IMG/VR virus record: IMGVR_UViG_3300005831_000022
DNA length: 51,168 bases
DNA from: a virus
Strand: one strand, 5' to 3'
Shown here one piece after another: positions 7,320-26,187 of the stretch. A program made the translations under genes and the position numbers. The stretch's first letter is position 1. Each line of letters opens with the position of its first letter. The notes beneath the pieces were generated by a model. It ran no database searches, had not been told where the DNA came from, and saw only the letters and a program-made list of their open reading frames with translations.

Positions 7320-7782
7320 GCTAAGAGTGTACACAGATGGAGCGTGTAGCGTTAACATTGGTGCAGGTGGCTATGGTCTTGTACTGTGTTATGACGATAA
7401 GATAGAAAAGAAATACGGATATAGCACAAACACAACAAACAACCGTATGGAGTTAATACCTGTCATAAAGGCTATACAGTACGCCAAAAAGTTAGGTATC
7501 AGTGATGTAGAAATATTGTCAGACAGTGCCTACGTAGTCAACTGTATAAATCAAAAATGGTACAGTAAGTGGAAAGTCAACAACTGGAAAACATCAAGCA
7601 ACACAGATGTGAAAAACGTTGACTTATGGAAAATGCTAATAAACGAACTAGACACAGCAGGGATGAAAGTGACGTTTACAAAAGTAAAAGGACATTCAGG
7701 CGACACATTAAACACAGAAGCCGACAGATTGGCAACACATGGCGTATATATGGCTAAACAGTTGTTAGGAGGTGGATTTTAA
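7312..7782 (+). CDS. rnhA: Ribonuclease HI
   Basis: VYTDGAC...GGYG, NNRMEL, ILSDSAYV, WKTS...VKN.DLW, VKGHSG...N.EADRLA. All RNase H catalytic D/E/D/D contexts are present. Confidence 0.85.
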   Translation: MSKLRVYTDGACSVNIGAGGYGLVLCYDDKIEKKYGYSTNTTNNRMELIPVIKAIQYAKKLGISDVEILSDSAYVVNCINQKWYSKWKVNNWKTSSNTDVKNVDLWKMLINELDTAGMKVTFTKVKGHSGDTLNTEADRLATHGVYMAKQLLGGGF

Positions 7783-8171
7783 TGAAAAGGTTCACAAAAG
7801 CACTTATGAAGTCTATAAGAAGCGTATACAGGCGTTCATGGTATGCGTTAGAAAAGAATCTGTTTGGTATAGGATGCATGTTAGAAGTATTATCATTCTT
7901 TATAATGTCACTGTTAGTGCAAAGGAATGTTGAACAGTTCATACTACAAGCGATATTCATTTCTGTGTTGCCTGTAGGAAAGTTACTACAGATGACAGCA
8001 AATAATTTAAATGTAGGCTGTACGATGCCTATGCACACAAAGAAGTTCACGTTGTGCGTAGATGACGAAATAACAGCCAATAAGAAAGATTTACAGGAAA
8101 TACTAATATATTTGTCGCAGGTTGAAGATTACGCATTACGACAAGGTCACAAGTATCAAGAAGAAGATTAA
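7782..8171 (+). CDS. Hypothetical protein
   Basis: ATG overlaps the upstream stop (TAATG). One hydrophobic segment. Confidence 0.5.
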   Translation: MKRFTKALMKSIRSVYRRSWYALEKNLFGIGCMLEVLSFFIMSLLVQRNVEQFILQAIFISVLPVGKLLQMTANNLNVGCTMPMHTKKFTLCVDDEITANKKDLQEILIYLSQVEDYALRQGHKYQEED

Positions 8172-12980: not shown

Positions 12981-13352
12981 ATGGAAACAACATTCAAAAT
13001 GGTATTACCTAGAACAATGAGAGGTAACAGCTGTATAGACTTAAATGAAAGCAATATACAAGCCGTGTATAGAAGAAAGAATCAAGAAATCAAGAAACTA
13101 GGAAGCGATAGGATAGCACCATTAACAGGTCTTATTATCCAAGTGGACAACAAGCCATACAGATTGATTAAGATTCAACGTGAGTATATTGGGACGCACC
13201 CATTTACAAACATTCAGCAAGAGACAGCAGACAAAAATATCATATATTGGGGCATCATGGCACAATGTAACGATATAAGCGATTTTGTACTATACTACCA
13301 AAAGGAGGATGCGACACCATGCCTTTTGACTTCAAGAAACAACGAATCGTAA
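12981..13352 (+). CDS. Hypothetical protein
   Basis: RBS GAGGG upstream of the ATG. Confidence 0.55.
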   Translation: METTFKMVLPRTMRGNSCIDLNESNIQAVYRRKNQEIKKLGSDRIAPLTGLIIQVDNKPYRLIKIQREYIGTHPFTNIQQETADKNIIYWGIMAQCNDISDFVLYYQKEDATPCLLTSRNNES

Positions 13353-13786
13353 CAGATGAAGAATATCAAAACTTCAACCAGTTAACCATTCAACAAATTG
13401 AAAGAATCAGAGAAGTATATAAAGAAGAGTCATCAATCGACCGTACAGCAGAAATTACAGGTCATTGTAGAAATACAATAAATAAGTACGTTAAAGATAT
13501 AAGTGTCCTTAAACGCAACAGCAGGGACTACGAGGGCAACGAAGTATTAAGGATATGCCCTAACACTGGAAAGATAGAAAGACGCTATAAAACGCAATTA
13601 CAAGCCTCAAAAGATAACTTCATTTCCCCTGACACGTTAAACAAGTGCATCAAGGGGCACACAGCAACAGCAGGAGGAAAAGTTTGGGTTTTGGAAAGTG
13701 AATATGACCAAAACAAAGATTATACCGTAAAAAGCAAATTTCACTTTTCAGACATTGCAAAACTCAATAGAATATTATTCATGTAA
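13319..13786 (+). CDS. HTH DNA-binding protein; candidate late-gene regulator
   Basis: HTH-like DRTAEITGHCRNTINKYVKD. C-terminal YKTQLQASKDNFIS...TAGGKVW resembles NUMOD/IENR-type DNA-binding modules. It sits about 1 kb upstream of terS, where ArpU/RinA-type activators usually lie. Confidence 0.45.
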   Translation: MPFDFKKQRIVTDEEYQNFNQLTIQQIERIREVYKEESSIDRTAEITGHCRNTINKYVKDISVLKRNSRDYEGNEVLRICPNTGKIERRYKTQLQASKDNFISPDTLNKCIKGHTATAGGKVWVLESEYDQNKDYTVKSKFHFSDIAKLNRILFM

Positions 13787-13800
13787 ATATAAAATAAAAG

Positions 13801-13841
13801 CAAATAAAAGGCAAAAAAGTGTTGACAATGCCTTTTATTTG
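13801..13841 (+). terminator. 13-bp hairpin terminator whose loop carries the next promoter's -35
   Basis: CAAATAAAAGGCA (13801..13813) pairs with TGCCTTTTATTTG (13829..13841). The loop is AAAAAGTGTTGACAA. Confidence 0.65.
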
Positions 13842-13850
13842 TTATATAAT
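13822..13850 (+). promoter_or_regulatory. Sigma-70/sigma-A type promoter
   Basis: TTGACA (13822..13827), 17 nt spacer, TATAAT (13845..13850). Confidence 0.85.
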
Positions 13851-13884
13851 AAGAGAGTAGTAAGTAATTACTTGCTAACATCAA

Positions 13885-13896
13885 TGTCAGTAGACA
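13885..13896 (+). promoter_or_regulatory. Mini-hairpin box TGTC-AGTA-GACA
   Basis: Perfect arms, directly followed by AAGGAG. Confidence 0.6.
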
Positions 13897-13911
13897 AAGG
13901 AGACAGAAAAA

Positions 13912-14172
13912 ATGATAACATTAGAAATGGTAAAAGAAAATATGCAATCAATGGTTGCATGTACATTCACAAAAGAAGAATTGGAAGATGTGTGTATAAT
14001 ATCTTTCCAAGATTACGAAGAAAACGACACAAGCGAAATAATATTTTCGCAACTAGGAAGAAACACATTTACAGCATACGTAAACAGCGAAGATGGAAAT
14101 GGTTACATCATAGAAACATCAAGCCATGTTGTAAATGGTGAAAATGTGTTTTTAGTTGAAGAGATAAGGTAA
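13912..14172 (+). CDS. Hypothetical acidic protein (86 aa)
   Basis: Good RBS. The overlapping 13755..14141 ORF is rejected. Confidence 0.6.
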   Translation: MITLEMVKENMQSMVACTFTKEELEDVCIISFQDYEENDTSEIIFSQLGRNTFTAYVNSEDGNGYIIETSSHVVNGENVFLVEEIR

Positions 14173-14180
14173 ACAAAGTT

Positions 14181-14252
14181 TCGCACTCTATAACAGGTAT
14201 AGTAAACGTTTATAACCAACAAACGTGTGTGGTTCAACTCCACTAGTGCGAA
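14181..14252 (+). ncRNA. tRNA-like element (non-canonical cloverleaf, no encoded CCA)
   Basis: Perfect 7-bp acceptor stem, TCGCACT (14181..14187) with AGTGCGA (14245..14251). Canonical T-arm GTGG-TTCAACT-CCAC. Total length 72 nt. The D region is a 5-bp/5-nt hairpin (CTATA-ACAGG-TATAG). The anticodon stem CGTTT/AAACG closes a 9-nt loop ATAACCAAC, and the variable region is only 1-3 nt. Confidence 0.45.
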
Positions 14253-14255
14253 TTA

Positions 14256-14327
14256 ACAGGTTACAAGCACAACAAATAATAAACATGCGATTATCCCCTC
14301 GATTACTGTATGTAGCTTGTAACCTGT
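14256..14327 (+). other. Clamp hairpin (13-bp perfect stem, 46-nt loop)
   Basis: ACAGGTTACAAGC (14256..14268) pairs with GCTTGTAACCTGT (14315..14327). Confidence 0.6.
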
Positions 14328-14331
14328 ATTA

Positions 14332-14343
14332 TGTCAATAGACA
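14332..14343 (+). promoter_or_regulatory. Mini-hairpin box TGTC-AATA-GACA
   Basis: Perfect arms, directly followed by AAGGAGGG. Confidence 0.55.
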
Positions 14344-14356
14344 AAGGAGGGAATCA

Positions 14357-14503
14357 ATGTTAGATAAAATAAATGACTTCTTTAGTAAGTCGCAAACAAC
14401 AGAACAAGACATGAAAAAGCGTGTAAGCACAAAAGAGGCTACAAGACACATGTCAAAGATTCAACGTGTAGTAATAGACAACACAAAACATACTAAAAAG
14501 TAA
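14357..14503 (+). CDS. Small hypothetical protein (48 aa)
   Basis: ATG 7 nt after AAGGAGGG. The track ORF 14225..14503 is trimmed because its 5' part overlaps the tRNA-like element and hairpin. Confidence 0.5.
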   Translation: MLDKINDFFSKSQTTEQDMKKRVSTKEATRHMSKIQRVVIDNTKHTKK

Positions 14504-14520
14504 AAGAGGTGATACAGACA

Positions 14521-14724
14521 ATGTTGTCACTAGTAAGCAGAATAAGACTAAAAATAAAGATATTCAAAAACAGGTTACGCTTAAGGTTGTTACACAACGA
14601 GATAACATCATTAGAACTAATATTTAATGATAAGCGTAAGCAGTTGACAGAAACACAGAAACGCACGTTAAGAAAACGTGCTAGCGAGATATTCGCAGAG
14701 ATAGAAACAATAACAACACTGTAA
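14521..14724 (+). CDS. Small basic coiled-coil protein (67 aa)
   Basis: ATG about 8 nt after AAGAGGTG. Confidence 0.45.
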   Translation: MLSLVSRIRLKIKIFKNRLRLRLLHNEITSLELIFNDKRKQLTETQKRTLRKRASEIFAEIETITTL

Positions 14725-14889
14725 ACACCATGTAACACAGTAATACAATTTCATAGTGTGCACTGACAAGGTTCATTTGTTTGAACACCTTGAAACAGCA
14801 AACAATAAAAGGATAACGTGTTACCAATGCATGTATATCCTTATTGCTGTATTAAGAGGTAAAATGAAAACATTGGAGGATAAGACAAA

Positions 14890-15687
14890 ATGAAGAAACA
14901 TTCACCAGCACACACAACAACAGGTGGTATTGTAGCCGATAGATTTCTATGTAATGACGGTGAATTACTACTAAGTGCGTATTCACGAGACGGAATGACA
15001 ATGAAAGAGATAGCCGAAAAGATAGGCGTTAACGTGTCCACGCTGTACTCATGGATGACTGACTTCCCTAACATCAAGAAAGCGTTACAAACAGGAAGAG
15101 ACATAGTTGATTACAAAGTAGAAAACGCATTGTTAAAACGTGCACTAGGTTACACGACAAAAGAAAGTAAGATTACAATGGAGTTAAAAGACGGATGCAT
15201 GACACAAACAAAAGTGGAAACAATCCAAAAAGAAGTTGACCCAAATGTAACAGCTATCGTTGTATGGTTAAACAACCGTAAACCTGATACATGGAAACGT
15301 AACCGAGACAACGTACTAGAAACAACAGACAAAGATAGTAACATAACAGTTAACATTTTCCATGATGGTAAGAAGAAAGATTTAAGTCAATCAACAGAAG
15401 ACGATACACCAATGGATGATACAACAGCAAGCGTAACAACACAACAAAGCACAACAGATATTACAGTAGTAAATAATCAAGAAAGTGCAAGCGATGAAAT
15501 ACGCAAACAACACAATAAACATTTAGAAGAAGAATACAACAAAAACAATGTAAACACAAAAGTGCAAACAGACCACACTTTAACTCACACAGTTGAATTA
15601 ACATGGGATGAAGATGAATGGGAAGAAACAACAACACCTGTTACCACGCAATCAGACGATTGGGATGATGAAGATGAATGGGGGTAA
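14890..15687 (+). CDS. terS: Terminase small subunit
   Basis: HTH MTMKEIAEKIGVNVSTLYSWM plus ...VVWLNNRKPDTWKRNRD, immediately upstream of terL. Long acidic Trp-rich C-terminal extension. Confidence 0.7.
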   Translation: MKKHSPAHTTTGGIVADRFLCNDGELLLSAYSRDGMTMKEIAEKIGVNVSTLYSWMTDFPNIKKALQTGRDIVDYKVENALLKRALGYTTKESKITMELKDGCMTQTKVETIQKEVDPNVTAIVVWLNNRKPDTWKRNRDNVLETTDKDSNITVNIFHDGKKKDLSQSTEDDTPMDDTTASVTTQQSTTDITVVNNQESASDEIRKQHNKHLEEEYNKNNVNTKVQTDHTLTHTVELTWDEDEWEETTTPVTTQSDDWDDEDEWG

Positions 15688-15693
15688 CAACAC

Positions 15694-17025
15694 ATGTTAG
15701 TAAACAAAGAAATTAATGAAGCGTTTAAAGATTATATCTTTGATTGGGATTACAAAACATACTTATCTCTAGGTGGTTACGGTTCGTCTAAATCATACCA
15801 CACAGCGTTGAAACTAATACTAAAACTGTTTGCAGAGAAACGAAAAGCGTTAGTAGTTAGAGAAGTGTATGATACACTAAAGGAATCAACGTTTGACCTT
15901 ATATTCGAAATACTAGATAGTATGGATATGTTAGAAGAAGAGAGTAACAAGGGTAGAACAACAAAGGTGCGTTTCAGAGTGTCACCATTACAGTTCGTGT
16001 TTCCTAATGGCTCACGTATCATATTTAAAGGAATGGACAGTCCTAGTAAAGTAAAGAGTATTAACAATGTATCTATAGTATGGATAGAAGAAGCAAGTGA
16101 ATTAAAGTATGCAGGTTACAAAGAGTTATTAGGGCGTGTACGTTGTTACGGTATGTCACTACATTTCATATTAACAACTAATCCTGTAGGTATGGAAACA
16201 TGGGTCTATACACACTTCTTTAAAAGTGTAAACGAACTAGGTGAAGAAACAATTGTACTAGATGATAAAGACTTATACAACAAGAAAGTAATTGTATGTA
16301 ACAACACATATTACCATCATAGTACAGTGGATGATAACAAGTTTATAAACCCTGAATACATACAAACACTTGACGAACTAAGAACATATGATGATACCTT
16401 ATGGAGGATAGCAAGGTGGGGACGTTTCGGTGTTAACGGTTTACGTGTGTTACCACAATTCACAGTTGCAAAGAACCCAACACAGTTTGTTAATGCTATA
16501 CGTAAGTTACCTATTAGTTCACATTATTTCGGTATGGATTTTGGATTTGAAACATCATACAATGCAGTGATATCATGTGCTGTAGATATACAAACAAAGA
16601 CATTATATATATACGATGAAATATACATTAATAACATAACAGATGATGTAATGAGTGAACATCCTAAGATGGTGAAACATAAGATAATGGAACACGAACT
16701 AGTAGCAGATAACGAAGACCCAAAAGCTATATCGTTCTATAGAAGATGTGGTTACAAGATGCGTGGTTGTCGTAACAAGTTTGCAGGTTCACGCTTATCT
16801 AATACAAGAAAGTTAAAACGTTTCAAACGTATTGTGTGTAGTCCTACATGTGTAAACGTAATAAGAGAATTAAAGAGTTTAACATATAAGATAAACAGGC
16901 AAGGTAAACTAATCTATGATGAATTCAATATTGACCCTCATACATTCAGTGCCTTGTGGTATGCATTAGATAACGTAACAGTGGCAGACGTAAAACATGA
17001 GAAGAGAAACAATAAAAGAGGATGA
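15694..17025 (+). CDS. terL: Terminase large subunit (PBSX/Terminase_3-like)
   Basis: Walker A-like GGYGSSKS, Walker B VWIEEASE, C-terminal nuclease region. Size and position fit. Confidence 0.9.
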   Translation: MLVNKEINEAFKDYIFDWDYKTYLSLGGYGSSKSYHTALKLILKLFAEKRKALVVREVYDTLKESTFDLIFEILDSMDMLEEESNKGRTTKVRFRVSPLQFVFPNGSRIIFKGMDSPSKVKSINNVSIVWIEEASELKYAGYKELLGRVRCYGMSLHFILTTNPVGMETWVYTHFFKSVNELGEETIVLDDKDLYNKKVIVCNNTYYHHSTVDDNKFINPEYIQTLDELRTYDDTLWRIARWGRFGVNGLRVLPQFTVAKNPTQFVNAIRKLPISSHYFGMDFGFETSYNAVISCAVDIQTKTLYIYDEIYINNITDDVMSEHPKMVKHKIMEHELVADNEDPKAISFYRRCGYKMRGCRNKFAGSRLSNTRKLKRFKRIVCSPTCVNVIRELKSLTYKINRQGKLIYDEFNIDPHTFSALWYALDNVTVADVKHEKRNNKRG

Positions 17026-18470: not shown

Positions 18471-21400
18471 ATGAGTACAAAGACAACAACAAGCAACGTA
18501 ACACAGCTAACACTAGAAACAGCAGTTTACAATAGCATAGTGTTTAGTGATACGTTTCCATACTTTTGTATTAAGAACACAACAGAGGGTAATATATATG
18601 TAAGTACTAATAACAACTTTGCGAATACAGATGATGACGTAACAATCATTGCAGGTGGTTCTAGTGCTGTAATTCTTAACAACAACAAATCAACACTTTA
18701 TATTAAAGCAAGCAACACAGGAGTAATAAACGTAATTGGTTTAAACTCTTTCATGATGCTTTTTAGTGGTGGCTCGCAAGGAGGTGGAACAGGATTGGAC
18801 GGAGCAGATGGTAAAGACGGAAGTCAAATATACTACGGTACAACGATTACAGGAACAACAGCAACAGGAACGATATTTGTAGACAGTGGCGTGTTAAGTG
18901 CTAATGTTGGCGATTACTACATGAATACAAACGCAGGCAATGTAAACGAGGGTAACATGTACTATTGTGTAACAGCAGGTGCAAGCGATGTAGCAGAGTG
19001 GGTTTACATTATATGTTTAAAAGGTAATGCAGGTACTGACGGAGAAGATGGGGTAGGAACAGAAACAGCAACTAAAACAACAGCAGGTGTTATCAAGGTA
19101 TCAGACGATTTTACATTGACAGGAGCAGGAAGTGATACATTAGAACTACCAAAAAGAGATAAGTTGCGTAACATGTTAGTCGATGATAAATTTAAGAGTA
19201 TGTTTATACAGTGGAATGTTGCGTATTCATACGATGCGTTAAAAGTACAGGTAAATGACACATATACAAAACTACATTCTACAAGTACAGGTAATAAGCA
19301 GGCGTGGGATGGTGTAACCTTAGAAAACGGACACACATACATTGCAATGGTAAACGCTAGATGTAACAGCAGTGGCACAGATGCGTGTAGAATGAAAATA
19401 AATCTTGCCAATTCACCATTTACAGAATATGGACTAGTAACAATTCCTATTAGTGCAAATTTCGGTAACTACGGATTTAGGTATACAAACAACACAGGAA
19501 CAAACAACTATTGCCAGTTCTCTATACAAGAACCCACAACACACGCTTTAGATGTAGACCTTGTTTATTGCGTACTTATTGACATTACAGATACAGACAT
19601 GATTGATATGACCTATGCAGAGATTAGAGATAGATACTTAAACGATTACGACTGTACATATAAAGGTTACGTATACTTTGATATACAAAAGAAATTAGAA
19701 TACGCCTTGACAGACATACGAGAAGACGAAGAAGAAGTTATTTATCCACGTATGAATACAAGCAGGTACACAAAGAACTTTTGGCGTACAAATGGTACTA
19801 AGTTTGTAGATGGTGCAGGTAACGAAGTAATTTTCAGAGCAAACAACGTAGGTAATGACTGTACTAACATTAACAGTATTGCAGGTAGTGACTTAATCGA
19901 AAGTACAAACGGATACAGCGAAGACCACAATGAAGACAGCTACAGAGAGTTAAAAGAATTAGGTTTTAATGGTATGCGTTTTGAACTTAACTATATCTTT
20001 TTTGAGGGTGCAGGAAACAGGGTAATAGATAACACACTAGCAGGCAACCCAAGTGATTACAATCCTAATGCATGGGCGTGGTTAGATAGAGAAATAGCAC
20101 TTGCTAGAAAGTACGATATAAAGCTACTCCTTAACATGCATGTATACAGTGGTATGGGTGGATGGGAAATAGCAACGCATAACATATGGACAACAGCAGA
20201 CAGTAGAACAAGATTTGTAAACCTATGGAAAGCAATAGCAACACGCTACAAGAACGAAGATATTATTATTGGTTACGGTTTAATGAATGAACCTGTAATA
20301 ACAGCACAAGTTGACAACGCTACTACGATAGCAATATATCAAAACTTAATGAATCTTACATGTACAGAAATACGTAAGGTAGACACAAATCATATCTTGT
20401 TTGTAGAACAAGCATTAAGAGATACAAACAACGACAGTACACTAAACAGTAATAACAATTTTGTGGATGTGTTAAATAACGGTGTACCTGATGATAAATA
20501 TTGTTGGGAAGCACACATTTACCATGATATGTCCATAACTCACGAAATGAGTGCAAGTAAACACTTAAGCATAAACTACCCTAACGAATTCGCTACGTTC
20601 AATACTGGCAGTCAATACGATTGGGTAGACAACACAGCAGTATTTGTAAATATACCAGTAGACACACCAAATCAAACAGAGTGGACAACATTTGAAACGG
20701 TATTAAAAATACCCCACGCAAATTGTAAACTGATATCACCATTCATTCGAATCAGGGATGCATTTGGTGGTGAAGTATGGCAGTTCTGTGATTACAAAAT
20801 AAGTATATATGATTCCAATAATAACTTTGTAGAAGACATTTTTATTGACAACGCTCAATACGGTGCAATCTTCAACGGTGGCGTGTTAGGTACAATGACA
20901 AACCCACAATTGCAAGGTGCAACAGAATTGGGATACATGCAATTAGTATCCAACGCCTTAAGTGGTAACACAACAACAGTAATGATGAACGAAACACCTG
21001 CGTCAGCACGTTGGAGAATCCCAGCAGGTTATAAGTACAAGATTAGTGCAAAGTACAGAGTTCAAAATATTTCTTCAAGTGTTATTTTCAGGTTCTATAT
21101 TGGTGCTGACGAAATTAATAGTGCGAATGTAACGAACACAGCAGAACGATTTGAGTATTATGTAGACACATACAAAACATCATGTGATGCCAAGAACATC
21201 CCTTTACACATAGGTGAGTTCGGGGCAAATTATAAATCAATCACACAGTTCGAACGTGGTGGAGATTTATGGGTAAGGGATGCCTTTTCAGTGTTACGTA
21301 AGAAACAAATCAACTATAGCTACTTTAGTTATAGTGGTTCTGATTTTTCTATGTATCGAGGGATGCCAAAATATTACTTAAGAGAACAAAAGCTTTATGA

Positions 21401-21476
21401 CGTGGTGCATAACCATTTCAGAGAAATTACAAACGCAGAAATAGACGCTATAGTAACAGAGACATTACAATCATAA
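18471..21476 (+). CDS. Fibre/receptor-binding protein with short collagen-like triplets and a GH5 (cellulase-family) domain
   Basis: GLDGADGKDGSQ and GNAGTDGEDGVG triplets. GH5 landmarks are FNGMRFEL, LLNMH, GYGLMNEP (acid/base Glu), HIYH and HIGEFG (nucleophile Glu). Confidence 0.7.
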   Translation: MSTKTTTSNVTQLTLETAVYNSIVFSDTFPYFCIKNTTEGNIYVSTNNNFANTDDDVTIIAGGSSAVILNNNKSTLYIKASNTGVINVIGLNSFMMLFSGGSQGGGTGLDGADGKDGSQIYYGTTITGTTATGTIFVDSGVLSANVGDYYMNTNAGNVNEGNMYYCVTAGASDVAEWVYIICLKGNAGTDGEDGVGTETATKTTAGVIKVSDDFTLTGAGSDTLELPKRDKLRNMLVDDKFKSMFIQWNVAYSYDALKVQVNDTYTKLHSTSTGNKQAWDGVTLENGHTYIAMVNARCNSSGTDACRMKINLANSPFTEYGLVTIPISANFGNYGFRYTNNTGTNNYCQFSIQEPTTHALDVDLVYCVLIDITDTDMIDMTYAEIRDRYLNDYDCTYKGYVYFDIQKKLEYALTDIREDEEEVIYPRMNTSRYTKNFWRTNGTKFVDGAGNEVIFRANNVGNDCTNINSIAGSDLIESTNGYSEDHNEDSYRELKELGFNGMRFELNYIFFEGAGNRVIDNTLAGNPSDYNPNAWAWLDREIALARKYDIKLLLNMHVYSGMGGWEIATHNIWTTADSRTRFVNLWKAIATRYKNEDIIIGYGLMNEPVITAQVDNATTIAIYQNLMNLTCTEIRKVDTNHILFVEQALRDTNNDSTLNSNNNFVDVLNNGVPDDKYCWEAHIYHDMSITHEMSASKHLSINYPNEFATFNTGSQYDWVDNTAVFVNIPVDTPNQTEWTTFETVLKIPHANCKLISPFIRIRDAFGGEVWQFCDYKISIYDSNNNFVEDIFIDNAQYGAIFNGGVLGTMTNPQLQGATELGYMQLVSNALSGNTTTVMMNETPASARWRIPAGYKYKISAKYRVQNISSSVIFRFYIGADEINSANVTNTAERFEYYVDTYKTSCDAKNIPLHIGEFGANYKSITQFERGGDLWVRDAFSVLRKKQINYSYFSYSGSDFSMYRGMPKYYLREQKLYDVVHNHFREITNAEIDAIVTETLQS

Positions 21477-26161: not shown

Positions 26162-26173
26162 AGTCAGTAGACA
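26162..26173 (+). promoter_or_regulatory. Mini-hairpin box (A)GTC-AGTA-GAC(A)
   Basis: 3-bp arms. Atypically placed before a terminator rather than an RBS. Confidence 0.35.
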
Positions 26174-26187
26174 AAGAAAAACAATAA

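What the first reader, a model, noticed from the sequence alone, without database searches (positions are those of the whole stretch)
14181..14252. Non-canonical tRNA-like element embedded inside an early operon
This 72-nt segment has a perfect 7-bp acceptor stem, a textbook T-arm (GTGG-TTCAACT-CCAC with the G53-C61 closing pair) and a discriminator A. The rest departs from a standard tRNA. There is no 8/9 spacer, and the D region is a 5-bp stem with a 5-nt loop (ACAGG). Three unpaired nt follow. The anticodon stem CGTTT/AAACG (extendable to 6 bp) closes a 9-nt loop ATAACCAAC, and the variable region is nearly absent. It lies between two CDSs with no promoter of its own. Possible roles are an RNase P/Z punctuation signal that cuts the polycistronic mRNA, a decoy for host anticodon nucleases or tRNA-targeting defences, or an expanded-anticodon-loop tRNA. 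No integrase is present, so an attP remnant is unlikely.
Basis: partly seen in the sequence, partly recalled or inferred. Interest (0 to 1): 0.75.

Follow-up and report, generated by a model that had tools for sequence, protein, structure and literature searches.

The report
Degenerate tRNA relic upstream of terminase
This 72-base stretch is a real but broken-looking tRNA-derived element, sitting where related phages keep their tRNA genes just before the DNA-packaging genes; it most likely serves only as a cutting site for tRNA-processing enzymes, so it is a modest curiosity, not a new kind of system.

Summary
Its acceptor stem plus T-arm is the only such module in the 51-kb window; shuffled windows give 0.005. 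It fails as a tRNA. ARAGORN at default, Rfam at gathering score, and Rfam at E<=10 on 91 nt all report nothing. ARAGORN calls it only at <=92% of threshold. A covariance model built from related phages' tRNAs gives 17.6 bits, against 72-76 for true tRNAs.

The context was misread. The element is not in an early operon. It lies 330 nt downstream of a perfect sigma-70 promoter, 638 nt upstream of terS and 1442 nt upstream of terL. In 112 distantly related loci, 36 of 37 tRNA genes occupy this same slot and strand. So do other degenerate tRNA-like elements (L004, L065, L103).

As in 19 of 19 relatives that carry slot tRNAs, a hairpin follows the element almost at once. No close relative and no second copy exist in any collection searched, so conservation cannot be tested.

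Best reading: a tRNA-derived, non-decoding element that is probably still excised by RNase P and RNase Z. An active compact-core tRNA or a decoy is not excluded.

The parts
13799..13843 (+). 15-bp hairpin that ends the upstream gene block. It is terminator-like, and its loop holds the -35 hexamer.
   Evidence: Inverted repeat 13801-13813/13829-13841, 100% complementary. Fold of 13795-13915 gives z -6.2.
13822..13850 (+). Consensus sigma-70-type promoter TTGACA-17-TATAAT. It is the likely start of the transcript that carries the element.
   Evidence: 12 of 12 hexamer matches; sequence read. Function is inferred.
13858..13877 (+). Stem-loop at the predicted 5' end of the primary transcript.
   Evidence: The position relative to the transcription start is inferred.
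13884..13902 (+). 19-nt motif ATGTCAGTAGACAAAGGAG, which includes the ribosome-binding site of ORF86. This is copy 1.
13912..14172 (+). ORF86, a hypothetical protein. Its stop codon ends 8 nt before the element.
   Evidence: No homologue among 5.8 billion proteins. No PHROG or Pfam family.
14181..14252 (+). The tRNA-like element. Acceptor 14181-14187/14245-14251. D-like hairpin 14188-14202. Anticodon-like hairpin 14206-14226, with loop 14212-14220. T-arm 14229-14243. Discriminator A14252.
14256..14327 (+). Long hairpin with a 13-bp perfect outer stem and no U-tract. It starts 3 nt after the element. Proposed role: 5' protective stem-loop of the processed downstream mRNA.
   Evidence: I5.: -25.1 kcal/mol, z -6.7, 0 of 200 shuffles as stable. 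A hairpin follows the slot tRNAs in 19 of 19 relatives. The role is inferred.
14331..14349 (+). 19-nt motif ATGTCAATAGACAAAGGAG, which includes the ribosome-binding site of ORF48. This is copy 2.
14357..14503 (+). ORF48, a hypothetical protein and the first gene after the element.
   Evidence: AAGGAGG, 6 nt, ATG. No family found.
14890..15687 (+). Terminase small subunit.
   Evidence: phrog_309, E 2.3e-40.
15694..17025 (+). Terminase large subunit, used as the anchor for synteny with relatives.
   Evidence: phrog_2 and phrog_3717.

Best explanation
The element is a tRNA-derived sequence that no longer works as a decoder. It sits in the tRNA-gene slot that this group of Clostridia-type siphoviruses keeps just upstream of terS and terL.

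What it keeps is the half of a tRNA that processing enzymes read: a 7-bp acceptor stem stacked on a T-arm with a consensus GGTTCAACTCC motif, plus GG in the D-loop. What it has lost or remodelled is the half needed for decoding. There is no U8/N9 spacer. The D-arm is odd. The anticodon loop has either 9 nt, or 7 nt closed by A.C with A at position 33.

Inferred mechanism:
1. It is transcribed from the consensus promoter at 13822-13850 as part of the ORF86-ORF48-ORF67-terS-terL message.
2. RNase P cuts at 14180/14181, leaving the ORF86 mRNA ending 8 nt after its stop codon.
3. RNase Z cuts after A14252.
4. The downstream message then begins 3 nt before the very stable 14256-14327 hairpin. That hairpin would shield the new 5' end.
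5. The excised 72-nt RNA may receive CCA but is not expected to be charged or to decode.

Whether the cut is selected for, as with plant-mitochondrial t-elements, or is a harmless leftover cannot be decided here.
For: Shown:
- The cloverleaf is the MFE.
- The acceptor/T-arm module is unique in the window and rare in shuffles, 0.005 per window.
- ARAGORN calls the element only at <=92% of threshold, where shuffles give 0.05 hits per window.
- The lineage covariance model scores it 17.6 bits, E about 0.002, the best hit in the window. True tRNAs score 72-76 bits.
- Rfam finds no tRNA.
- 36 of 37 ARAGORN tRNAs in 112 related loci lie on the + strand within 2.5 kb upstream of terL. That slot is 10.8% of the search space. 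The element is 1442 nt upstream of terL on the + strand.
- The other weak tRNA-like hits in relatives are all in the same slot: L004 33.1 and 20.3 bits, L065 20.4 bits, L103 17.6 bits.
- The last slot tRNA is followed within 0-2 nt by a hairpin in 19 of 19 relatives, against 18.7% at random positions.
- Here a hairpin with z -6.7 starts 3 nt after the element.
- The primary transcript and the predicted processed transcript share one layout: stem-loop, 19-nt motif, ribosome-binding site, ATG.

From established knowledge: RNase P, RNase Z and the CCA-adding enzyme recognise the acceptor/T-arm domain. Non-canonical tRNA-like t-elements carrying GGTTCRANYCC are cut by both enzymes (PMC1920247).
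Against: - There are no expression or cleavage data.
- The element is a singleton. No close relative of the phage and no second copy exist in IMG/VR, JGI metagenomes, GTDB genomes, INPHARED or the 5.8-billion protein set. There is therefore no conservation or covariation evidence.
- All four helices of the MFE fold are mismatch-free, 22 Watson-Crick pairs in all. Random decay of a tRNA gene would not obviously produce this. It leaves room for a selected non-canonical fold.
- U14180 can pair with A14252 to give an 8-bp acceptor. The 49-65 pair is U.U. Either could impair RNase P/Z recognition.
- Finding relics with intact acceptor/T-arms in relatives is partly a detection bias, because the detectors key on those parts.
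Confidence: 0.55

Rival explanations
1. It is an active but structurally unusual tRNA. It would have a compact core like tRNAPyl or mammalian mt-tRNASer(UCN): 0-1 nt between the acceptor and D stems, a 5-nt D-loop, a 6-bp anticodon stem and a tiny variable region. Its enlarged 9-nt anticodon loop would read a quadruplet codon or promote frameshifting, or would resist host anticodon nucleases.
For: The four compact-core features occur together and all helices are perfect. The review PMC7609411 lists the same combination for tRNAPyl and mt-tRNASer(UCN). The latter also keeps G18G19 and T-psi-C, as this element does. The same review lists an 8-nt anticodon loop in yeast mt-tRNAThr. Phage tRNAs with altered anticodon loops have been proposed to evade tRNases (PMC10264068).
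Against: - Three unpaired nt lie between the D and anticodon stems, which is unlike those tRNAs.
- There is no CUA or UGA anticodon.
- The D and anticodon hairpins are only -0.4 and -2.0 kcal/mol.
- The score is 17.6 bits against 72-76 for the lineage's real tRNAs.
- The window reads normally with table 11 as long + strand ORFs, with no sign of recoding.
- No synthetase or tRNA-repair gene was found in the ORFs scanned.
- There is no conservation evidence.
Confidence: 0.1
2. It is a non-decoding decoy or sponge. The excised tRNA-like RNA would bind a host tRNA-targeting defence nuclease or a tRNA-modifying enzyme, and so protect real tRNAs.
For: The RNA has a tRNA-shaped acceptor/T-arm and a GG D-loop that could fold into an L-shape. 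A consensus promoter lies upstream. Published work shows that phages counter tRNA-cleaving defences through tRNAs (PMC10264068; PMC11555353, listed).
Against: The known counter-measures are functional tRNAs and not dead mimics. No defence-related partner gene is nearby. The element is a singleton with no conservation. The anticodon loop matches no known nuclease target that could be checked here.
Confidence: 0.08
3. It is an inert relic: a dead tRNA gene that is neither processed nor used, kept only because deletion has not yet removed it.
For: It fails every standard tRNA test. Other degenerate tRNA-like pieces lie in the same slot in L004 and L103. Many relatives have an empty slot.
Against: The processing determinants are the best-preserved part. 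The tRNA-then-hairpin junction seen in all relatives with slot tRNAs is kept. Phage genomes are compact, and this 184-nt spacer consists entirely of structured RNA (z -3.2).
Confidence: 0.15
4. It is a chance cloverleaf in AT-rich intergenic DNA with no tRNA ancestry.
For: The fold z-score is only -2.36. The inner arms are no better than 22% of shuffles. Rfam's tRNA model is silent. ARAGORN at 90% of threshold gives 0.21 hits per shuffled window.
Against: The acceptor/T-arm descriptor gives 0.005 per shuffled window. The covariance-model E-value is about 0.002. The single hit falls on the correct strand, in a slot that is about 2.4% of the window's two strands, and is followed by the lineage-typical hairpin.
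Confidence: 0.07
5. It is a DNA-level element: an attP core or recombination scar that copies part of a host tRNA gene.
For: Phage attachment sites often copy the 3' part of a tRNA gene (general knowledge).
Against: No integrase or recombinase was found among the ORFs scanned, and the genome has its own DNA polymerase, primase and UvsX-like recombinase, which looks virulent. The pattern TCGCACT N{35,52} GGTTCRANYCC NNN AGTGCGA has no match in GTDB species genomes, IMG/VR or JGI metagenomes.
Confidence: 0.02

Closest known systems
Genuine tRNA genes (Gln-UUG, Met-CAU, Gly-UCC, Leu-UAG) of related uncultivated Clostridia phages, located just upstream of terS/terL
   Same: Same strand and same slot, 0.5-1.5 kb upstream of terL. 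Same junction, with a hairpin immediately 3' of the last tRNA, then a ribosome-binding site and the next gene. The T-loop TTCAACT is identical to that of the Gly-UCC genes in L056, L065 and L073.
   Different: Those score 72-76 bits and pass ARAGORN. This element scores 17.6 bits and fails. It has no 8/9 spacer, an abnormal D-arm, and a 9-nt or A33 anticodon loop. There is no detectable sequence homology outside the generic tRNA positions.
Plant-mitochondrial t-elements: tRNA-like, non-canonical cloverleaves used as RNase P/RNase Z processing signals in mRNAs (PMC1920247)
   Same: Both have the GGTTCRANYCC T-arm motif, an acceptor stem and a degenerate remainder. Both are embedded between coding regions of one transcript. 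The element's ends are predicted to define the neighbouring mRNA ends.
   Different: The host system is a bacteriophage of Firmicutes, not a plant organelle. Cleavage here is only inferred. No family of copies exists here, whereas t-elements are dispersed repeats.
Compact-core tRNAs: tRNAPyl and mammalian mt-tRNASer(UCN) (PMC7609411)
   Same: 0-1 nt between the acceptor and D stems, a 4-5-nt D-loop, a 6-bp anticodon stem and a variable region of about 3 nt. mt-tRNASer(UCN) also keeps G18G19 and T-psi-C.
   Different: Those have a 7-nt anticodon loop with a defined anticodon and a single nucleotide between the D and anticodon stems. This element has a 9-nt loop and three nucleotides. No cognate synthetase context was found.
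Degenerate tRNA-like elements in the same slot of relatives (L004:1706-1771, L004:1970-2044, L103:3646-3690)
   Same: All have a perfectly paired acceptor and a T-arm, with a defective or missing anticodon arm. All lie on the + strand in non-coding DNA upstream of the packaging genes.
   Different: The sequences are unrelated to one another. L004:1970-2044 and L103 encode a CCA end, and this element does not. L103 lacks both the D and anticodon arms.

Membership tests
Canonical tRNA (Rfam RF00005 / ARAGORN cloverleaf) | 7-bp acceptor stem with an unpaired discriminator | tested here: met
   TCGCACT/AGTGCGA followed by A14252. U14180 could pair with the discriminator.
Canonical tRNA (Rfam RF00005 / ARAGORN cloverleaf) | 5-bp T stem closed by G53-C61, and a 7-nt loop T54 T55 C56 R57 A58 N59 Y60 | tested here: met
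   TGTGG-TTCAACT-CCACT, with four Watson-Crick pairs and U.U at 49-65.
Canonical tRNA (Rfam RF00005 / ARAGORN cloverleaf) | Two nucleotides (U8, N9) between the acceptor and D stems | tested here: not met
   None in the MFE fold. A single C in ARAGORN's forced alignment.
Canonical tRNA (Rfam RF00005 / ARAGORN cloverleaf) | D-arm with a 3-4-bp stem and a 7-11-nt loop containing G18G19 | tested here: inconclusive
   The MFE has a 5-bp stem and the 5-nt loop ACAGG. ARAGORN's alternative has stem TATA/TAAA with an A.A mismatch and a 10-nt loop containing GG.
Canonical tRNA (Rfam RF00005 / ARAGORN cloverleaf) | 5-bp anticodon stem and a 7-nt loop with U33 and a purine at 37 | tested here: not met
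   Either the 9-nt loop ATAACCAAC on a 6-bp stem, or the 7-nt loop TAACCAA closed by A.C, with A at position 33.
Canonical tRNA (Rfam RF00005 / ARAGORN cloverleaf) | Score above the detection thresholds of tRNA finders and covariance models | tested here: not met
   ARAGORN default gives 0. It calls the element only at <=92% of threshold. Rfam at gathering score gives none. Rfam at E<=10 on 451 nt and on 91 nt gives no tRNA hit. The lineage model gives 17.6 bits against 72-76. tRNAscan-SE was not available.
Canonical tRNA (Rfam RF00005 / ARAGORN cloverleaf) | Aminoacylation and use in translation | not testable with these tools
   This needs acid-gel northern blots, tRNA-seq or charging assays.
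t-element-type tRNA-like processing signal | GGTTCRANYCC motif in a T-arm next to an acceptor-like stem, in a non-canonical cloverleaf | tested here: met
   GGTTCAACTCC at 14231-14241. Descriptor result. Definition taken from PMC1920247.
t-element-type tRNA-like processing signal | Located within a longer mRNA transcript, between coding regions | tested here: inconclusive
   It is intergenic on the coding strand, 330 nt downstream of a consensus promoter. No U-tract terminator lies between the promoter and ORF48. Transcription itself was not observed.
t-element-type tRNA-like processing signal | Cleavage by RNase P at the 5' end and RNase Z at the 3' end, defining the mRNA termini | not testable with these tools
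   This needs RACE, RNA-seq or in vitro cleavage.
tRNAPyl / mt-tRNASer(UCN) compact-core tRNAs | 0-1 nt between the acceptor and D stems, a 4-5-nt D-loop, a 6-bp anticodon stem and a variable region of about 3 nt | tested here: met
   0 nt, 5 nt, 6 bp and 2-3 nt respectively. Criteria from PMC7609411.
tRNAPyl / mt-tRNASer(UCN) compact-core tRNAs | 7-nt anticodon loop with a CUA (Pyl) or UGA (Ser-UCN) anticodon, and a single nucleotide between the D and anticodon stems | tested here: not met
   The 9-nt loop ATAACCAAC contains neither CUA nor UGA. Three nucleotides (TAA) lie between the stems.
tmRNA tRNA-like domain, YrlA/Y RNA and other curated tRNA mimics | Match to a curated model | tested here: not met
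   ARAGORN finds no tmRNA. Rfam 15 gives no hit at gathering score, and only noise at E<=10.
attP core derived from a host tRNA gene | An integrase in the element, and sequence identity to a bacterial tRNA 3' half | tested here: not met
   No integrase family among the ORFs scanned. The acceptor plus T-loop pattern is absent from GTDB genomes.

The most novel reading that the evidence does not exclude
The element is a selected, working RNA and not a relic. There are two versions. In the first, it is an active compact-core tRNA with tRNAPyl/mt-tRNASer(UCN)-like geometry and a 9-nt anticodon loop, used by a virulent Clostridia phage for non-triplet decoding or to resist anticodon nucleases. In the second, it is a phage counterpart of the organellar t-element: a tRNA mimic kept only to direct RNase P/Z cutting of the message that leads into the packaging genes, working together with the 5' hairpin that follows it. 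The recurrence of acceptor/T-arm-only relics in the same slot of unrelated relatives (L004, L103) would then reflect convergent retention of a processing signal.
Probability: 0.15. Interest if true: 0.7.

Novelty: new member of a known kind. Interest (0 to 1): 0.3.

Why it matters
If this is only a decayed tRNA gene, it matters little. It does show how phage tRNA genes erode in place, and that standard tRNA finders and Rfam miss such remnants.

If the cut sites are real, it would extend tRNA punctuation by non-decoding tRNA mimics, known from plant mitochondria, to bacteriophage operons. It would also explain a junction conserved across this phage group: tRNA, then an immediate hairpin, then a ribosome-binding site, then the packaging genes. 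In that case the junction would set the 5' end and the stability of the terminase message.

The active compact-core tRNA reading would interest the genetic-code field, but nothing found here favours it.

Tried and rejected
Searches for a second copy or a close relative all failed:
- blastn of 13000-15500 against INPHARED.
- Exact 23-mer of the 3' half in IMG/VR.
- Acceptor plus T-loop pattern in IMG/VR, GTDB genomes and JGI metagenomes.
- terS-based locus search in IMG/VR and in metagenomes.
- terS, ORF86 and ORF155 against 5.8 billion proteins. These returned self only, then hits of 55% identity or less, or 44% for ORF155.
- Exact-protein contig look-ups for terS, the major capsid protein and ORF86.

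Other dead ends:
- blastn-short and nhmmer of the spacer against 80 related loci gave nothing.
- tblastn of the six ORFs upstream of terS against the loci gave nothing.
- The 19-nt motif in IMG/VR gave 32 single hits in unrelated contigs, judged to be chance.
- The only homologue of ORF155 (L146-L148) has no tRNA-like element next to it.
- L004's neighbour gene has no relative either, so the L004 elements could not be tested for conservation.

Readings considered and dropped:
- tmRNA, Y RNA or another curated RNA: Rfam and ARAGORN are negative.
- The downstream hairpin as a second dead tRNA: it has no T-arm.
- The downstream hairpin as an intrinsic terminator: it has no U-tract.
- A repeat family linking hairpins 14256-14327 and 14569-14645: they share only a 10-mer.

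Full report
**Observation.**
- Acceptor TCGCACT/AGTGCGA, with discriminator A.
- An abutting 5-bp/5-nt hairpin CTATA-ACAGG-TATAG, then TAA.
- A 6-bp stem ACGTTT/AAACGT closing the 9-nt loop ATAACCAAC, then GT.
- T-arm GTGG-TTCAACT-CCAC, then one extra T. In tRNA numbering this T makes a U.U 49-65 pair.

RNAfold returns this cloverleaf as both MFE and centroid: -17.8 kcal/mol, z -2.36, 7 of 200 shuffles as good.

**Is it more than chance?** Thermodynamics alone is unimpressive. The inner 41 nt fold at -4.1 kcal/mol, which 22% of shuffles match. Two perfect hairpins of at least 5 bp occur in only 0.8% of shuffles. The strong signal is the acceptor/T-arm module.
- A simple descriptor was run: 7-bp acceptor, T stem with G53-C61, TTCRANY loop. 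It hits once in the 51-kb window on both strands. It hits 0.005 times per dinucleotide-shuffled window.
- Local ARAGORN calls the element once the threshold is lowered to 92%, where shuffles give 0.05 hits per window.
- A covariance model built from 25 genuine tRNAs of related phages (A3, R1) was run with filters off. It ranks this interval first in the window at 17.6 bits, E about 0.002, aligned end to end at 14181-14252.

**Is it a tRNA?** By every standard test, no.
- ARAGORN at default finds no tRNA or tmRNA in the window.
- Rfam 15 finds nothing at gathering score.
- Rfam finds no tRNA match at E<=10, even when only 91 nt are searched.
- True tRNAs of relatives score 72-76 bits with R1.

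ARAGORN's forced alignment reads 'tRNA-Gly(ACC)'. It needs one nucleotide at positions 8/9, an A.A mismatch in the D stem, an A.C pair closing the anticodon stem, A at position 33 in place of U, and U.U at 49-65. An A34 Gly tRNA is not a normal bacterial species (my own knowledge). The T-loop TTCAACT is identical to that of the Gly-UCC genes of relatives. That is a weak hint of ancestry and no more.

**Context.**
- All genes are on the + strand.
- The replication and recombination genes occupy 41.6-51 kb and 1-13.8 kb. They include DNA polymerase, primase, a UvsX-like recombinase, a Cas4-like exonuclease, RNase H and resolvases.
- The packaging, head, tail and lysis genes run from 14.9 to about 39 kb.
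- No integrase was found.
- At 13.8 kb a 15-bp hairpin (z -6.2) carries a 12/12 sigma-70 promoter, TTGACA-17-TATAAT at 13822-13850.
- The order after the promoter is: a 5' stem-loop, a 19-nt motif with a ribosome-binding site, ORF86, the element 8 nt later, a long hairpin 3 nt after the element (14256-14327; -25.1 kcal/mol, z -6.7, no U-tract), the same 19-nt motif with a ribosome-binding site (18 of 19 identical), ORF48, ORF67, terS (14890) and terL (15694).

**Relatives.** The phage is a singleton. terS, ORF86 and ORF155 have no close homologue among 5.8 billion proteins; the best are 55% and 44% identical. No DNA match exists in INPHARED. The acceptor plus T-loop pattern is absent from IMG/VR, GTDB genomes and JGI metagenomes. 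Conservation and covariation of the element therefore cannot be tested.

terL does retrieve 112 distant relatives at 61% identity or less. They come from IMG/VR contigs and Clostridia MAGs or prophages. They give three informative results.
1. 36 of the 37 ARAGORN tRNA genes in these loci lie on the terL strand within 2.5 kb upstream of terL. They are Gln-UUG, Met-CAU, Gly-UCC and Leu-UAG. That slot is 10.8% of the sequence searched. The element lies 1442 nt upstream of terL on the same strand.
2. The only other weak hits to R1 in 854 kb of relatives are all in the slot on the + strand.
   - L004, the closest terL at 61%, has two degenerate tRNA-likes in a 540-nt non-coding stretch.
   - L065 has an odd tRNA between its Met and Gly genes.
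   - L103 has a bare acceptor/T-arm minihelix with an encoded CCA.
3. In 19 of 19 relatives with slot tRNAs, the last tRNA is followed within 0-2 nt by a hairpin of at least 5 bp, against 18.7% at random positions. About six unrelated hairpin sequences are involved, with compensatory changes between L058 and L067. A ribosome-binding site and the next gene follow. The window keeps this junction.

**Interpretation.** Taken together, the element is almost certainly tRNA-derived and sits in the lineage's tRNA slot. It is very unlikely to decode. What survives is what RNase P, RNase Z and the CCA-adding enzyme read, by established knowledge. Plant-mitochondrial t-elements are non-canonical cloverleaves recognised by the same GGTTCRANYCC motif, and they show that such remnants can be cut and can define mRNA ends (PMC1920247).

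I therefore propose the following. The element is excised from the promoter-13822 transcript. The ORF86 message then ends just past its stop codon. The downstream message starts 3 nt before a very stable hairpin. Both messages then have the same layout: stem-loop, 19-nt motif, ribosome-binding site. That a 5'-terminal stem-loop protects Firmicute mRNAs from 5'-end-dependent decay is from my own knowledge and was not checked here. All processing steps are inferred. None is shown.

**Caveats and rivals.**
- The MFE fold has 22 Watson-Crick pairs with no mismatch.
- It combines four features typical of tRNAPyl and mt-tRNASer(UCN): no 8/9 spacer, a 5-nt D-loop, a 6-bp anticodon stem and a minimal variable region (PMC7609411). 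A selected non-canonical tRNA or a decoy is therefore not excluded.
- Against that reading are the 9-nt loop, the three nucleotides between the D and anticodon stems, the very weak inner helices and the absence of any partner gene.
- A purely inert relic and a chance cloverleaf are the remaining options. The chance reading is disfavoured by the combined statistics and by the position.
- The recurrence of 'acceptor/T-arm intact, rest broken' in relatives is suggestive. It is partly an ascertainment effect, because the detectors key on those parts.

**Verdict.** This is a real feature with a correct structural description and a misread context. It is best filed as a degenerate tRNA-derived element, a new member of a known kind, with a plausible but untested t-element-like processing role. 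Interest is modest at 0.3.

Noticed in passing
window 13884-13902, 14331-14349, 26163-26176: The motif ATGTCARTAGACAAAGGAG occurs twice, 18 of 19 identical. Each copy supplies the ribosome-binding site of an ORF (ORF86, ORF48) and each is preceded by a stem-loop. Its 14-nt core GTCAGTAGACAAAG occurs a third time, in the intergenic region before a terminator at about 26190. All three copies are on the + strand and intergenic. With up to 3 mismatches allowed, shuffles give 0.02 matches to the 19-mer. It may be a regulator or RNase site. Alternatively, the two full copies may be direct repeats flanking a 447-bp inserted cassette made of ORF86, the tRNA-like element and the hairpin.
   Followed up: partly
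window 13799-13850: A 15-bp AT-rich hairpin (z -6.2) ends the replication-gene block. A perfect TTGACA-17-TATAAT promoter is embedded in it, with the -35 hexamer in the loop. This looks like an overlapping terminator and promoter or operator.
   Followed up: partly
window 14256-14327: This hairpin is far more exceptional than the tRNA-like element itself: 13 perfect outer pairs, -25.1 kcal/mol, z -6.7, no U-tract. A promoter-like TTAACA-16-AATAAT at 14253-14280 overlaps its 5' arm.
   Followed up: partly
window 14569-14645: A second branched hairpin (z -3.6) lies inside ORF67. It starts with the same 10-mer, AACAGGTTAC, as the 14256 hairpin and has a similar interior of about 47 nt. Otherwise the two do not align.
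   Followed up: partly
L036-L041, L049, L051, L052, L056, L058, L062, L065, L067, L068, L073, L079, L080, L090 (just 3' of the last slot tRNA): In 19 of 19 related phages the tRNA cluster upstream of terS is followed within 0-2 nt by a hairpin of at least 5 bp, against 18.7% at random positions. About six unrelated hairpin sequences are involved. L058 (AGGTGGC/GCCACCT) and L067 (GGATGGC/GTCATCC) covary. This is a conserved tRNA-mRNA junction of unknown role.
   Followed up: partly
L004:1706-1771 and L004:1970-2044: The closest terL relative (61%) has a 540-nt non-coding region with two sub-threshold tRNA-like elements. One is 66 nt with no proper anticodon arm (20.3 bits). The other has a 6-nt loop CGCCAA, which looks like a Gly-GCC loop missing U33, and an encoded GCCA end (33.1 bits).
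   Followed up: partly
L103:3646-3690 (Romboutsia timonensis prophage): A bare acceptor/T-arm minihelix TGCAAGT...GTAGG-TGCAACT-CCTAC-A-ACTTGCA-CCA with no D or anticodon arms lies 1.3 kb upstream of terL.
   Followed up: no
L065:3757-3833, L067:3596-3672: Odd tRNAs with intact acceptor and T arms but aberrant anticodon arms sit between the Met-CAU and Gly-UCC genes of two relatives. ARAGORN reads them as 6-nt loops, '(ta)' and '(ag)', below its default threshold.
   Followed up: no
L056, L058, L065, L067, L073 Met-CAU genes: These Met tRNAs all carry a non-Watson-Crick 50-64 pair (T.T or C.C) in the T stem (read from alignment A3).
   Followed up: no
window 7964-8040: The second-best hit of the lineage tRNA model is 12.1 bits, E 0.15. 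It has an 8-bp acceptor-like stem and lies inside ORF 7782-8171, just after the RNase H gene. It is probably chance.
   Followed up: no
window 18471-21476: A 1001-aa ORF with a GH5 cellulase domain (Pfam E 7e-19) lies between the terL/lysin genes and the portal gene. This is an unusual place for a glycoside hydrolase of that size.
   Followed up: no
window 13319-13786 (ORF155): The gene just upstream of the promoter has only one homologue among 5.8 billion proteins, at 44% identity. That homologue carries a faint NUMOD1 hit, the homing-endonuclease DNA-binding module. ORF155 overlaps ORF123, just as its homologue overlaps a 133-aa ORF.
   Followed up: partly
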